A DNA stretch of 4,366 nucleotides from a virus (Duplodnaviria; Heunggongvirae; Uroviricota; Caudoviricetes): the IMG/VR virus record IMGVR_UViG_3300029253_000163. One strand, given 5' to 3'. The position numbers and the translations under genes were made by a program. Below the pieces are notes generated by a model that was given only the letters and a program-made list of their open reading frames with translations, was not told the origin of the DNA and searched no databases. Numbering within the stretch: position 1 is the first letter of the stretch; each line of letters starts with the position of its first letter. Below are positions 136 to 1,521 of the stretch, piece after piece.

Positions 136-320
136 TGCCAGCATCCTTTTTGTATCGGACGTAAACGGGCCAGCATTGAAAGAATGCATATTTTATTTAA
201 TAGCTCCCGTTCGTGTTTTCTCTTGTTAATGGCATCTTCAGTAAATACAGGGTTACTGATAGTGACACCAATTTCAAAACAACCTTCAGANNNNNNNNNN
301 NNNNNNNNNNNNNNNNNNNN
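132..320 (-). CDS. dicB: DicB cell-division inhibitor; start codon and first ~10 codons lie inside the masked N run, so 320 is inferred
   Basis: Minus-strand translation of 290..135 gives SEGCFEIGVTISNPVFTEDAINKRKHERELLNKICILSMLARLRPIQKGCWQ, then TGA at 134..132. I recognise this as the C-terminal 52 aa of the 62-aa DicB. Ten missing N-terminal codons place the ATG near 320. The ORF track's plus-strand ORF 58..372 is its antisense shadow. Confidence 0.85.
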   Translation of the reverse strand, partial: XXXXXXXXXXSEGCFEIGVTISNPVFTEDAINKRKHERELLNKICILSMLARLRPIQKGCWQ

Positions 321-351
321 NNNNNNNNNNNNNNNNNNNNNNNNNNNNNNN
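291..351. other. Masked or unknown bases (61 N); hides the dicB start codon and RBS
   Basis: Run of n in the sequence. Confidence 0.95.
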
Positions 352-487
352 GTGCCTGGTGCCTCCAGGTGACGTTAACCAGTTAACAATTAACGCCGGA
401 TACAGAGAATCCACCCATAACACTGTTTTTGGTTTTAACTGTTCCGCGTGCGCTCAGCCGCATTCACCACATCACAAAATTCACTTT

Positions 488-530
488 AAAAAGGGCGGCA
501 GAGCAGTCACGGAGTAAAACTGATACCGCC
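488..530 (-). terminator. Intrinsic terminator forming the DicF 3' end (GC stem plus U5)
   Basis: On the minus-strand RNA, GGCGG (530..526) and CCGCC (498..494) can pair, followed by UUUUU (492..488). Read-through would be needed for dicB expression. Confidence 0.55.
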
Positions 531-545
531 AAACGTCACCAGAAA
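488..545 (-). ncRNA. dicF: DicF small regulatory RNA (Hfq-dependent antisense sRNA targeting ftsZ and other mRNAs)
   Basis: Minus-strand sequence UUUCUGGUGACGUUUGGCGGUAUCAGUUUUACUCCGUGACUGCUCUGCCGCCCUUUUU matches the DicF sequence as I recall it. It lies between the upstream ORFs and dicB, as in the K-12 dicB operon. Exact 5' end is set by processing and is approximate here. Confidence 0.85.
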
Positions 546-676
546 ATTGATAACAGAGGGCGTTGCAGCGGGGTTGTCACTTAAGCGTATGGTCAACCTG
601 ACAACTCGGTGTCCTCAACGGGGAAGGAATAACCCCGCCATACTTACCGCCGCGCCATTTCGCGGGTTGCCACAAC

Positions 677-744
677 CGGAAGCGCACGGTCGAATTAAAT
701 TTAACGACACCGTACAGTGAGACGAACTTCGCCGTGCGCTTTCG
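677..744. repeat. Long imperfect inverted repeat (about 14-bp arms, 40-nt spacer) in the untranslated leader upstream of dicF
   Basis: Positions 677-690 (ccggaagcgcacggt) pair with 731-744 (gccgtgcgctttcg): 12 Watson-Crick plus 2 G-T/U pairs. Shorter GC hairpins lie nearby at 650-665 (CCGCG/CGCGG) and 621-637 (GGGG/CCCC). Confidence 0.6.
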
Positions 745-820
745 TGTTGTGTGCCTGCTTTTAACCACGTCAGGCGAGGTGGTATCCTTCTTATCCCGAA
801 TAACCAAGAAGGAAATCTAT

Positions 821-1021
821 ATGACTAAAGAAGAATTTGTCTCTTATATTTTTGATAAAACGGTTGAAATGTATGCCGCTACTTACGGGTCCTGTAATCC
901 TCTGAATAAACCAGAGGGGAAAGATGATTTCGACAAAATTTACCGCTTCTTGGAGGACCGCTATATCAAAAGGTTAGAGGACGCAGGGATCAAATCCCCA
1001 GTGAAGTCACCATTGTCCTGA
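821..1021 (+). CDS. Hypothetical 66-aa hydrophilic protein encoded antisense to the dicB operon
   Basis: ATG at 821 preceded by AAGGA (7-nt spacing); the ORF track's 734 start is an upstream alternative-start extension. Translation MTKEEFVSYIFDKTVEMYAATYGSCNPLNKPEGKDDFDKIYRFLEDRYIKRLEDAGIKSPVKSPLS. Overlaps the 3' end of the convergent 121-aa ORF by 32 nt. No homolog recognised and no clear promoter found. Confidence 0.4.
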   Translation: MTKEEFVSYIFDKTVEMYAATYGSCNPLNKPEGKDDFDKIYRFLEDRYIKRLEDAGIKSPVKSPLS

Positions 1022-1355
1022 GAACTTGCAGGACGTCATGATCGTAACTTCCATCCAAACCGCGACGGCAAATTGCTTCTCGTATTACCGGAAGCAGTTC
1101 GCTGGAAATCTCGGTGCATATTTCACCTGATAATACGCCTGGCTCAAGTGAGAATATTGGTGAACTTACGGTCTTGGTCTCGACAGTTTCAGAGTCAGTG
1201 CCAACATTATAAAGCTCAACGAAAGCGGTCTTGATTTTCCGGGCCAGATCTTTTGCTGGCTCGCTTGCAATATCTTTCCCGATTTCTCGCAGCACAGAAT
1301 GCAATGTATGAGCTGCTGTTTTCTGTACATCAGACGGTAAATCTTTAAATTCCAT
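990..1355 (-). CDS. Hypothetical 121-aa protein in the K-12 ydfB/ydfC position
   Basis: ATG at 1355 with GAGG 6 nt upstream; the track's 1367 start lacks an SD. Translation MEFKDLPSDVQKTAAHTLHSVLREIGKDIASEPAKDLARKIKTAFVELYNV... The N-terminal half looks like a helical soluble protein. Same strand as dicA and dicB, so presumably part of the leftward early operon. Confidence 0.55.
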   Translation of the reverse strand: MEFKDLPSDVQKTAAHTLHSVLREIGKDIASEPAKDLARKIKTAFVELYNVGTDSETVETKTVSSPIFSLEPGVLSGEICTEISSELLPVIREAICRRGLDGSYDHDVLQVLRTMVTSLGI

Positions 1356-1383
1356 CGTCAGCCTCATCAGTCAGTGTTTCTGG

Positions 1384-1521
1384 CTAACCAGCAACGCGCG
1401 CCAGATTCGGTTTNNNNNNNNNNNNNNNNNNGGTATATGTCATCGCGGTGAACGTACCGTCCTGGTTGGGGAACACGCCACATACCAGAGATTCGCTGTT
1501 GCCAAGATCGATAGTATCCAT
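1384..1521 (-). CDS. Hypothetical small protein (about 45 aa) in the ydfA position; 6 codons masked by N
   Basis: ATG at 1521 with GAGG 6 nt upstream. Translation MDTIDLGNSESLVCGVFPNQDGTFTAMTYT-(6 masked)-KPNLARVAG, stop TAG at 1386..1384. The track's 1575 start is a GTG extension without an SD. First ORF downstream of the OL-like operators. Confidence 0.5.
   Translation of the reverse strand: MDTIDLGNSESLVCGVFPNQDGTFTAMTYTXXXXXXKPNLARVAG
1414..1431. other. Masked or unknown bases (18 N) inside the ydfA-position ORF
   Basis: Run of n in the sequence. Confidence 0.95.

What the first reader, a model, noticed from the sequence alone, without database searches (positions are those of the whole stretch)
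821..1021. Small ORF with a strong RBS encoded antisense to the dicB operon
Between the 121-aa ORF and dicF the sense strand has no convincing ORF, but the opposite strand carries a 66-aa ORF with AAGGA 7 nt before the ATG. Its end overlaps the convergent 121-aa ORF by 32 nt. I do not recall any annotated gene on this strand in the K-12 dicB operon. If expressed, it would be convergent with the DicA-repressed operon and a candidate for antisense interference or a prophage cargo gene.
Basis: partly seen in the sequence, partly recalled or inferred. Interest (0 to 1): 0.6.

Follow-up and report, generated by a model that had tools for sequence, protein, structure and literature searches.

The report
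Small prophage gene antisense to dicBF
The 66-codon reading frame is a real, selection-maintained small prophage gene that databases already list as "hypothetical"; it sits backwards inside a repressed prophage operon behind a promoter-like block shared with other small genes, and its function is still unknown.

Summary
ATG 821 to stop 1021 on the + strand gives 66 aa, AAGGA lies 7 nt upstream, and the ORF overlaps the convergent 121-aa ORF by 32 nt. The window is the Qin-like prophage of E. coli B/BL21, not K-12. K-12 has ydfB/ydfC in place of window 763-1431.

The ORF is already annotated (WP_000159335.1, hypothetical; phrog_34441, unknown function). It is a genuine gene:
- It is intact in 57 of 60 sampled loci.
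- Length is kept down to 42-57% identity in other enterobacterial prophages.
- dN/dS is 0.08-0.28, the lowest of the six frames.
- Substitutions are enriched at third codon positions.
- A strong ribosome-binding site is present in every lineage.

AlphaFold gives a soluble two-helix hairpin with no informative fold or family match.

Two findings are new. First, an identical 36-nt promoter-sized block (753-788; TTAACC, 16 nt, TGgTATCCT) precedes at least four unrelated + strand cargo ORFs, and 38% of complete E. coli genomes carry it. Second, the gene travels with the C-terminal domain of the convergent 121-aa protein, whose N-domain is conserved while its C-terminus is polymorphic.

My best reading is an independently expressed antisense cargo gene in the position that sieB holds in lambda, possibly a cognate partner of that C-domain. 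Expression and function are inferred, not shown.

The parts
753..788 (+). 36-nt promoter-sized block GCCTGCTTTTAACCACGTCAGGCGAGGTGGTATCCT. Proposed elements are -35 TTAACC (761-766), a 16-nt spacer, TG (780-781) and -10 TATCCT (783-788).
   Evidence: The block is identical upstream of at least four unrelated + strand cargo ORFs, whose start codons (three cargo types measured) lie 32-34 nt after it. In L079 the sequence differs on both sides of the block. The block is present in 2,059 of 5,426 E. coli genomes and never lies under an annotated feature. Divergent homologue loci keep only GGTG(G/A)TA(T/C)CCT, which fits an extended -10 and not the small hairpin. Promoter activity is inferred, not shown; the simple scanner did not flag it because it matches 8 of 12 hexamer positions.
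809..813 (+). Shine-Dalgarno sequence AAGGA, 7 nt before the ATG
   Evidence: Read directly from the sequence. Strong SDs are kept in every lineage even where the leader differs: GGGAGG in L004, AAAGGA in L003/L006, GGAGGA in L011.
821..1021 (+). 66-aa CDS including the stop codon (7.7 kDa, pI 5.3, soluble two-helix hairpin)
   Evidence: PGAP annotates it as WP_000159335.1. It matches phrog_34441 at 1.5e-50. dN/dS is 0.08-0.28 in this frame and substitutions concentrate at third positions. It is intact in 57 of 60 loci. AF2 gives pLDDT 82.8 with helices 3-22 and 31-54.
990..1021 (.). 32-nt 3' overlap of the two convergent CDSs
   Evidence: The geometry is the same in 90 of 92 loci and is 26 nt in the other two. 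The overlap is about 56 nt in L003/L006 and 35 nt with an unrelated partner in L011.
990..1355 (-). Convergent 121-aa CDS ('Ybl81', WP_001320327.1). The N-domain is aa 1-49, the linker is disordered, and the C-domain is about aa 69-121 (window 990-1151).
   Evidence: The N-domain is nearly invariant across proteins with at least five different C-terminal parts. The C-domain co-occurs with the 66-aa gene. The AF2 model is poor, with pLDDT 58.
763..1431 (.). Cassette that is absent from K-12 Qin, which carries ydfB/ydfC instead
   Evidence: blastn of the window against K-12: homology covers 352-762 (95%) and resumes at 1432.
493..544 (-). DicF sRNA (context only; part of the operon to which the ORF is antisense)
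   Evidence: Rfam RF00039, 76.7 bits.

Best explanation
The ORF is a genuine small-protein gene and forms a self-contained expression unit, placed backwards inside the repressor-controlled early-left operon of lambdoid prophages of the DicA/DicB type. It occupies the position that sieB holds next to gene N in phage lambda.

Shown here: the frame is under purifying selection, and its length, start codon and ribosome-binding site are kept in distant relatives. Also shown: an identical 36-nt block precedes several unrelated cargo genes at a fixed distance from their start codons.

Inferred: that block is a sigma-70 promoter of the extended -10 type. It would give a leader of about 25 nt. Because it faces the repressed lytic operon, it would let the gene be expressed in the lysogen, independently of DicA.

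The product is a soluble 7.7-kDa two-helix hairpin, so it most likely acts by binding another protein. My preferred target, at roughly 35-40% on its own, is the C-terminal two-helix domain of the convergent 121-aa early protein, with which the gene is co-inherited as one cassette. On this reading the 66-aa protein is a cognate neutraliser or modulator made in the lysogen. Convergent overlapping transcription would make the two genes reciprocally expressed, which is the gene architecture of pore-forming colicin operons and their opposite-strand immunity genes.
For: Real gene:
- PGAP annotates it, and it belongs to phrog_34441.
- 420 of 5,426 E. coli genomes carry it, and it is intact in 57 of 60 loci.
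- Homologues of 42-73% identity keep 65-67 codons.
- NG86 dN/dS is 0.08-0.28, the lowest of the six frames.
- Differences by codon position are 10/10/25 against Cedecea and 16/11/29 against L003. The single indels are whole codons.
- An SD is present in all lineages.

Independent unit:
- The 36-nt block is identical before four cargo types, with start codons 32-34 nt downstream.
- In L079 both flanks of the block differ.
- The extended -10 core is kept in divergent loci although the small stem is broken in L008.
- L011 has a different leader with a consensus TATAAT.
- GC content drops from 54% to 41% at the ORF.

Position:
- The gene always opposes the early lytic operon beside the immunity region, with three repressor types (DicA-HTH, CI-S24, RacR-like).
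- Lambda sieB (+) abuts N (-) in the same way.

Partner coupling:
- Every C-domain locus examined has the 66-aa gene or a remnant of it, and 60 of 62 loci ascertained through the C-domain have it intact.
- 388 E. coli genomes have the pair versus 390 with the ORF.
- N-domain proteins with other C-termini lack it (L198, L199, L200), whereas L201, on a similar prophage backbone to L198, has both.
- In Cedecea the pair moved to the cro-cII interval. There the C-domain is a separate ORF with its own AGGAGA SD and ATG, and dN is 0.26 with synonymous sites saturated.
- The C-domain and the 66-aa gene share a recent history (dS 0.13-0.25), unlike the N-part (dS 1.26).

Colicin architecture: PMC9517006.
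Against: - There is no expression evidence of any kind. Promoter activity, a transcript and translation are all untested, and no literature mentions the gene.
- The consensus scanner did not flag the block (8 of 12 hexamer matches), and no intrinsic terminator follows the gene.
- Partner coupling could be passive. The 3' ends overlap physically, and mosaic exchange at the conserved N-domain and at the promoter block would move both genes together.
- The most distant homologue (L011/L012) pairs with an unrelated 63-aa gene.
- Two loci (L227, L232) lost the block and codons 1-51 while keeping the 121-aa gene. IS1 interrupts the ORF in three others. The protein is therefore not indispensable in a repressed prophage.
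- Other cargo genes behind the same block show no such partner.
- No toxicity or activity is known for the 121-aa protein, and its model is poor (pLDDT 58).
- No fold or family match gives a functional hint.
Confidence: 0.5

Rival explanations
1. The gene is a stand-alone lysogenic-conversion cargo. It is real and independently expressed, but its target is a host or incoming-phage component (exclusion, defence or host modulation, as for sieB or DicB). Its association with the 121-aa C-domain is only physical linkage within a mosaic block.
For: - The same promoter block carries unrelated cargo with no partner: a 106-aa 3-TM protein, the ECs_2282 Zn-ribbon protein and a possible wHTH protein.
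- A related prophage has a 148-aa 2-TM protein in the same slot.
- The L011 homologue has an unrelated convergent neighbour.
- The gene can be lost while the 121-aa gene stays.
- Among close relatives, changes cluster in residues 17-29 and are mostly non-synonymous, as might be expected of a surface in a host-phage conflict.
Against: - The Cedecea relocation kept a complete C-domain with a new SD and ATG under purifying selection, not just the 10 overlapping codons.
- Co-occurrence is strict in samples ascertained from either gene.
- There are no hits to any defence-system model (PADLOC), and the protein has no membrane segment, unlike SieB-type excluders.
Confidence: 0.33
2. One reading: the important product is the + strand transcript. 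Convergent transcription or antisense pairing would dampen leaky expression of the DicA-repressed dicBF operon, and the peptide would be incidental.
For: - The gene is convergent with the early operon in every locus, within about 0.3-1 kb of the early promoter.
- The 3' ends always overlap by 26-56 nt, even with an unrelated partner in L011.
- No terminator follows the ORF, so a transcript could run antisense into the 121-aa and ydfA-like genes.
Against: - Protein-level purifying selection and a conserved SD and start codon show that the peptide matters.
- An RNA-only function would not preserve a 66-codon frame at 50-73% DNA identity.
- The gene occurs in prophages for which no dicB was called or annotated downstream, and in the rightward operon in Cedecea.
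- The predicted RNA fold is unremarkable (z = -1.2).
Confidence: 0.1
3. The ORF is a chance open frame or a decayed remnant that annotation pipelines have merely propagated.
For: - There is no experimental evidence and no known domain.
- The family is tiny, with about 10 clusters at 50% identity among 1.84 billion representatives.
- Almost all E. coli copies are at least 99% identical, so within-species conservation is uninformative.
Against: - dN/dS is well below 1 in this frame only, apart from the expected mirror effect in one antisense frame.
- Whole-codon indels, a conserved start and a nearly conserved stop, and an SD are seen across lineages down to 42% identity.
- No minus-strand ORF in the window could cast it as a shadow ORF.
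Confidence: 0.03

Closest known systems
Phage lambda sieB (also Rac sieB): a lysogen-expressed gene on the opposite strand inside the pL operon
   Same: The position and orientation match. Lambda sieB (34482-35036, +) is convergent with, and abuts, the first pL gene N (35037-35438, -). Here the ORF is likewise convergent with an early-left gene just downstream of the repressor gene. That sieB is expressed from its own promoter in the lysogen is from my own knowledge (Ranade and Poteete 1993) and was not checked here.
   Different: There is no sequence or family relationship (no Pfam hit). SieB is a membrane protein of about 160-190 aa, whereas this is a 66-aa soluble hairpin. Exclusion activity is untested.
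Morons of lambdoid phages (Juhala/Hendrix definition: promoter, gene and terminator inserted between conserved genes)
   Same: The gene is inserted between genes that are otherwise arranged differently in relatives (K-12, L007, L078, L079). It has a lower GC content than its flanks, a candidate promoter of its own, and alternative cargo genes occupy the same slot.
   Different: No factor-independent terminator was found. The unit overlaps and co-varies with part of the neighbouring gene instead of lying cleanly between genes.
Pore-forming (ionophoric) colicin operons with an opposite-strand immunity gene
   Same: The architecture matches. A stress- or repressor-controlled operon encodes a protein with a variable C-terminal domain. 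A small gene on the opposite strand with its own promoter lies directly behind it, and lysis or division-inhibiting genes lie further downstream (PMC9517006).
   Different: No homology was found. Those immunity proteins are integral membrane proteins, whereas this one is soluble. No toxic activity is known for the 121-aa protein, and the setting is a prophage early operon rather than a Col plasmid.
ECs_2282-family putative zinc-binding protein (NCBIfam/PGAP name): another 66-aa gene behind the same block
   Same: It has the same 36-nt upstream block, the same strand, the same kind of prophage slot and the same length.
   Different: The sequence is unrelated: a CxxC...CxxC zinc ribbon versus a helical hairpin. 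The weak Pfam Zn_ribbon_16 hit of the window ORF (E 0.04, below cut-off) is not supported, because the ORF has no cysteine pairs.

Membership tests
Protein-coding gene (versus chance ORF) | Purifying selection in this frame across diverged homologues | tested here: met
   dN/dS is 0.08-0.28 in frame +0, the lowest of the six frames. Differences concentrate at third positions.
Protein-coding gene (versus chance ORF) | Start, length and ribosome-binding site conserved; indels in whole codons | tested here: met
Protein-coding gene (versus chance ORF) | Evidence of transcription and translation | not testable with these tools
   No literature or accessible dataset was found.
Moron (Juhala/Hendrix) | Insertion between genes that are arranged differently in related phages | tested here: met
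   K-12, L007, L078 and L079 have other content in this slot.
Moron (Juhala/Hendrix) | Own sigma-70 promoter | tested here: inconclusive
   A 36-nt block with an extended -10 is conserved and shared by four cargo types. It falls below the simple scanner's threshold, and activity is untested.
Moron (Juhala/Hendrix) | Own factor-independent terminator | tested here: not met
   No terminator-like sites were found on either strand in 350-1700.
Moron (Juhala/Hendrix) | Base composition distinct from the flanks | tested here: met
   GC is 40.8% in the ORF versus about 54% in 545-788.
SieB superinfection-exclusion family | Sequence membership and membrane-spanning segments | tested here: not met
   No Pfam, NCBIfam or PADLOC hit. 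GRAVY is -0.68 and the protein has no hydrophobic helix. Only the genomic position is shared.
Colicin-type effector/immunity pair (polymorphic toxin logic) | Conserved N-terminal part with a variable C-terminal domain in the putative effector | tested here: met
   The N-domain (aa 1-49) is nearly invariant across at least five C-terminal variants.
Colicin-type effector/immunity pair (polymorphic toxin logic) | Small adjacent gene co-varies with the C-terminal domain | tested here: met
   plus the Cedecea relocation. Caveat: physical overlap could produce the same pattern, and L011 is an exception.
Colicin-type effector/immunity pair (polymorphic toxin logic) | C-domain is toxic or active, and the small protein binds and neutralises it | not testable with these tools
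   No multimer prediction or assay was available. The single-chain model of the 121-aa protein is poor.
Type II toxin-antitoxin system | Co-transcribed two-gene operon with recognisable toxin or antitoxin domains | tested here: not met
   The genes are convergent, not co-transcribed. No TA or defence family hits.
cis-antisense regulatory RNA (such as lambda oop or P22 sar) | Non-coding, short, structured transcript with a terminator | tested here: not met
   The frame is under protein-level selection. There is no terminator, and the fold z-score is -1.2.

The most novel reading that the evidence does not exclude
Lambdoid prophages of enterobacteria carry a polymorphic two-gene module in their early operons. 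The first or second early protein has a conserved N-domain and an exchangeable C-terminal effector domain. Each C-domain type comes with its own convergent, overlapping, lysogen-expressed small gene, of which the 66-aa hairpin is one. That small gene would neutralise the C-domain. This would be a colicin-like effector/immunity logic operating inside the lysis-lysogeny switch, driven by a portable 36-nt promoter found in 38% of E. coli genomes.
Probability: 0.22. Interest if true: 0.7.

Novelty: new member of a known kind. Interest (0 to 1): 0.42.

Why it matters
About 8% of complete E. coli genomes carry this gene, including the B/BL21/REL606 laboratory lineage. About 38% carry the 36-nt block that appears to drive it and several other unstudied small genes, all antisense to the dicBF operon. 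That operon is toxic when derepressed.

If the block is an active promoter, three things follow:
- It defines a widespread, swappable slot for lysogen-expressed small proteins in cryptic prophages.
- It points to at least one cargo ORF that PGAP misses (the 106-aa membrane protein).
- It gives simple constructs for testing what these proteins do, whether exclusion, control of early-gene leakage or modulation of the partner protein.

If the partner model holds, it would add an effector/neutraliser pair to the regulatory region of lambdoid phages. If neither holds, the result is still useful: the finding is a correctly annotated hypothetical gene, not an overlooked one.

Tried and rejected
- Family searches for the 66-aa protein found nothing at significance in Pfam (single sequence and all alignment members), NCBIfam or PADLOC. 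The only hit was PHROG 34441, of unknown function.
- A profile search of PDB sequences gave nothing better than E 0.07.
- A profile search of 1.84 billion representatives found about 10 true relatives and no annotated ones.
- The weak Pfam Zn_ribbon_16 hit was rejected because the ORF has no cysteine pairs and is unrelated to the ECs_2282 protein.
- Literature searches by accession, locus tag, 'ybl' names, ECs_2282 and dicBF antisense terms found nothing. The BL21 Ribo-RET preprint has no held supplements.
- The idea that the conserved upstream motif is an RNA hairpin (ACCAC...GTGGT) was rejected. L008 breaks the stem without compensation, while the TGnTAyCCT core stays.
- The idea that the ORF is a shadow of a minus-strand gene was rejected because the window has no such ORF.
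- The 63-aa partner in L011 was tested for remote homology to the C-domain by BLASTP and hhalign, with no result.
- The AF2 model of the 121-aa protein was too poor (pLDDT 58) to justify a fold search.
- The RNA fold of the putative mRNA is unremarkable.

Full report
**1. What the window is**

Window positions 600-1400 are 100% identical to E. coli B-lineage chromosomes (BL21(DE3), REL606, C41/C43 and others) and to some wild isolates. In BL21(DE3) NC_012971.2 the neighbourhood is a Qin-like cryptic prophage. Converted to window coordinates, the genes are:

| Feature | Window coordinates | Strand |
|---|---|---|
| ydfD, then dicB | dicB 130-318 | - |
| DicF | 493-544 | - |
| 66-aa ORF | 821-1021 | + |
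| 121-aa ORF | 990-1355 | - |
| DUF1391 / ydfA-like gene | about 1367-1519 | - |
| DicA-like repressor | 1690-2097 | - |
| Cro/DicC-like gene | 2175-2405 | + |
| YdaT-like and replication genes | 2389 onward | + |

Rfam confirms DicF (76.7 bits). Pfam confirms the HTH_3 repressor, P22_Cro and DUF1391 assignments.

Its homology with the window covers 352-762 and resumes at 1432, with ydfB and ydfC in between. Neither the 66-aa nor the 121-aa protein has a tblastn match in the K-12 region.

**2. The observation**

Every stated detail is correct: ATG at 821, stop ending at 1021, 66 aa, AAGGA at 809-813 with a 7-nt spacer, and a 32-nt overlap (990-1021) with the convergent ORF.

The ORF is not unannotated. 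PGAP calls it hypothetical protein WP_000159335.1. RAST-style annotation of phage mEp460_ev081 also calls it. It matches PHROG 34441, of unknown function, end to end (E 1.5e-50). It is the only ATG ORF of at least 60 aa in the window with a strong SD 4-14 nt upstream.

**3. Is it a real gene?**

- Within E. coli it occurs in 420 of 5,426 complete genomes, almost always at 99% identity or more. That level of identity says little about selection.
- Wider searches found full-length relatives at 88-91% identity (E. coli-like and Enterobacter prophages), 73% (Cedecea), 54-57% (two metagenomic prophages) and 42-47% (a further prophage group). All have 65-67 codons from the conserved MT(K/N)E(E/Q)FV start.
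- The family is tiny: about ten clusters among 1.84 billion representatives.
- Nei-Gojobori dN/dS in the ORF's frame is 0.08-0.28 for all pairs, the lowest of the six frames. Only the antisense frame that shares third positions comes close.
- Differences by codon position are 10/10/25 (window against Cedecea) and 16/11/29 (against L003) outside the overlap. The two length differences are single whole codons.
- Each lineage keeps a strong SD even where the leader is unrelated: AAGGA, GGGAGG, AAAGGA and GGAGGA.
- Of 60 sampled loci, 57 are intact. The exceptions are IS1 insertions after codon 15 (L076 and L077, plus L169 from a later scan) and one rearranged locus, L075. Two further loci carry a deletion (L227, L232).

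I conclude with about 0.9-0.95 confidence that this is a protein-coding gene.

**4. The protein**

It is 7.7 kDa with pI 5.3 and GRAVY -0.68. AlphaFold2 on a 7-sequence alignment gives a two-helix hairpin (helices 3-22 and 31-54), mean pLDDT 82.8, with a floppy tail. That tail, PVKSPLS, is encoded by the overlap. Its conservation is probably imposed by the partner's C-terminus, MVTSLG.

Among close relatives, changes cluster in residues 17-29, at the end of helix 1 and in the loop, and are mostly non-synonymous.

**5. Expression signals: a shared promoter-sized block**

Comparing other prophages with the same dicF-proximal sequence showed that the slot is variable:

| Locus | Content of the slot |
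|---|---|
| K-12 | ydfC on the operon strand |
| L007, a RacR-type prophage | a + strand 148-aa two-TM protein |
| L078 | a + strand 106-aa three-TM ORF that PGAP does not call |
| L079, O121:H19 | a + strand 66-aa 'ECs_2282 family putative zinc-binding protein' |

In L078, L079 and the window, the 36 nt GCCTGCTTTTAACCACGTCAGGCGAGGTGGTATCCT (window 753-788) are identical, and the sequences diverge immediately after TATCCT.

Pooled with the loci already fetched, these fall into four cargo types behind it:

| Cargo behind the block | Loci | Start codon after the block |
|---|---|---|
| 66-aa hairpin | 82 | 32 nt |
| 106-aa TM protein | 57 | 34 nt |
| Zn-ribbon protein | 35 | 33 nt |
| wHTH-like ORF | 1 | not determined |

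In L079 the sequence upstream of the block also differs, so the shared unit is just the block itself.

The block reads as -35 TTAACC, a 16-nt spacer, then TGgTATCCT, which is an extended -10. Divergent homologue loci keep GGTG(G/A)TA(T/C)CCT at 31-38 nt from the ATG. The small ACCAC/GTGGT stem is broken in L008 without compensation, which favours a promoter over an RNA structure. L011 has a different leader with a consensus TATAAT.

The block occurs at 2,804 places in 2,059 of 5,426 E. coli genomes and never lies under an annotated feature.

Limits: the consensus scanner did not flag it (8 of 12 hexamer positions; TG is not scored), and no terminator follows the ORF. Promoter activity is therefore an inference. 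I put it at about 0.6.

**6. Genomic position**

In every locus the gene opposes the early lytic operon, close to the immunity region:

- It lies downstream of DicA-type repressors (window, L009), CI/S24-type repressors (L003, L006, L008, L201) and a RacR-like repressor (L011).
- In Cedecea (L004/L005) it sits in the rightward operon between cro and a cII-like gene, pointing toward the repressor gene.

Several of these prophages have no dicB called or annotated downstream, so the gene is not tied to dicBF. The arrangement mirrors lambda, where sieB (+) abuts N (-) inside the pL operon.

**7. Link to the convergent gene**

The 121-aa protein ('Ybl81' in one UniRef name) has a nearly invariant N-domain (aa 1-49). 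Related proteins carry that N-domain with at least four other C-terminal parts. AF2 suggests two N-terminal helices, a disordered linker (52-84) and two low-confidence C-terminal helices, with mean pLDDT 58.

The window-type C-domain and the 66-aa gene go together:

- All 92 loci with a detectable C-domain have the gene, convergent, with a 32-nt overlap in 90 loci and 26 nt in 2.
- Of 62 loci found through the C-domain alone, 60 have the full gene.
- 388 E. coli genomes have the pair, against 390 with the ORF.
- N-domain proteins with other C-termini lack the gene and have other convergent ORFs (L198, L199, L200). L201, on a similar prophage backbone to L198, has both the window-type C-domain and the gene.
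- Synonymous divergence shows that the C-domain and the 66-aa gene share a recent history (dS 0.13-0.25), whereas the N-part is old (dS 1.26 for window against L009). Recombination in the linker therefore swaps the C-domain and the antisense gene as a cassette.
- In Cedecea the pair has moved to another operon. The C-domain alone persists there as an ORF with its own AGGAGA SD and ATG, at 59% identity, with dN 0.26 and synonymous sites saturated.

Against a functional link:

- Physical overlap makes some co-transfer inevitable.
- The L011 homologue has an unrelated 63-aa partner.
- The gene can be deleted or IS-disrupted while the 121-aa gene remains.
- Other cargo behind the same block has no such partner.

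**8. Mechanism**

Shown: this is a conserved protein-coding gene with a strong SD. An identical upstream block is shared among unrelated cargo genes. The gene is always antisense to the early operon. It is co-inherited with the partner's C-domain.

Inferred: the block is a constitutive-type promoter, so the protein is made in the lysogen, when the opposing operon is repressed. The hairpin acts by binding a protein.

My preferred target is the partner's two-helix C-domain. This would give a neutraliser/effector pair whose convergent, overlapping transcription makes the two genes reciprocally expressed. The architecture is that of pore-forming colicin operons, whose immunity gene lies on the opposite strand with its own promoter (PMC9517006).

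The main rival is a stand-alone lysogenic-conversion function, such as exclusion or host modulation. A chance ORF is essentially excluded.

**9. Comparison with known systems and novelty**

It works like a moron or a sieB-type lysogen gene. It fails the terminator criterion for a canonical moron and is not a SieB family member. It resembles colicin immunity only in gene architecture.

The gene itself is already in databases as hypothetical, so on the safest reading it is a new, uncharacterised member of a known kind. The shared 36-nt block with swappable cargo and the polymorphic N-domain/C-domain protein with co-varying antisense genes are, as far as my searches show, not described.

**10. 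Verdict**

Interest is moderate (0.42). The ORF is a solid, testable small-protein gene with an intriguing genomic design, but there is no expression or functional evidence, and its arrangement has clear precedent.

Noticed in passing
window 753-788; also L078 2409-2444 and L079 2234-2269: An identical 36-nt block (TTAACC, 16 nt, TGgTATCCT) precedes at least four unrelated + strand small ORFs, with start codons 32-34 nt downstream. It occurs at 2,804 places in 2,059 of 5,426 complete E. coli genomes and is never annotated.
   Followed up: yes
L078 2479-2799 (+), NZ_OX460322.1: A 106-aa ORF with three predicted membrane helices and a TAAGGA SD lies behind the same block. It is found in 57 pooled loci but PGAP does not annotate it in this genome. 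It replaces the 3' end of ydfB and all of ydfC.
   Followed up: partly
L079 2303-2503 (+), O121:H19 STEC: A 66-aa 'ECs_2282 family putative zinc-binding protein' (two CxxC pairs) lies behind the same block and next to a ydfC remnant. No paper mentions ECs_2282.
   Followed up: partly
L007 2759-3205 (+), RacR-type prophage: A 148-aa two-TM protein occupies the same antisense slot. Its leader contains a consensus TATAAT. It has a weak, sub-threshold resemblance to SLATT_4 (E 0.053), which hints at an exclusion or abortive-infection cargo.
   Followed up: partly
window 990-1355 (-) and proteins P0072-P0075: The 121-aa early protein belongs to a polymorphic family. The N-domain (aa 1-49) is nearly invariant, and there are at least five unrelated C-terminal parts in Escherichia, Enterobacter and Serratia prophages. 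PHROGs 9419, 1363 and 2151 share the N-domain. Function is unknown.
   Followed up: partly
L004 3568-3897 (-), Cedecea: The relocated C-domain mini-ORF has lost the usual stop. It runs on for 55 more codons, antisense through the whole 66-aa gene, giving a 109-aa ORF. Whether this extension is translated is unknown.
   Followed up: no
window 869-907 (codons 17-29 of the ORF): Among close relatives (88-91% identity), amino-acid changes cluster at the end of helix 1 and in the loop (MYAATYGSCNPLN, TYAAVQQTCNPLD, TYAALHQSSNSLN). The rest of the protein is nearly invariant, so this may be a specificity surface.
   Followed up: no
L076, L077, L169; L227, L232: Natural knock-outs exist. IS1 is inserted after codon 15 of the ORF in three viral contigs. 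In two others a deletion of about 365 nt (window about 610-973) removes the block and codons 1-51 but leaves the 121-aa gene intact.
   Followed up: partly
window 352-467 (-): There is a sub-threshold Rfam match to STnc100 (28.8 bits against a gathering score of 47, E 0.0016) in the dicF-dicB spacer. It is probably the conserved dicBF leader rather than a separate sRNA.
   Followed up: no
window 291-351 and 1414-1431: Two runs of N mask the start of dicB with its upstream region and part of the ydfA-like gene. The BL21 record has ordinary sequence there. This does not affect the finding.
   Followed up: no
LR597641.1 (phage mEp460_ev081) 29891-30091: This is the only one of 50,697 deposited phage genomes that encodes the protein, and it carries the whole dicB/121-aa/66-aa/repressor region. 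The module is therefore compatible with a viable phage, although it is mostly seen in prophages.
   Followed up: no
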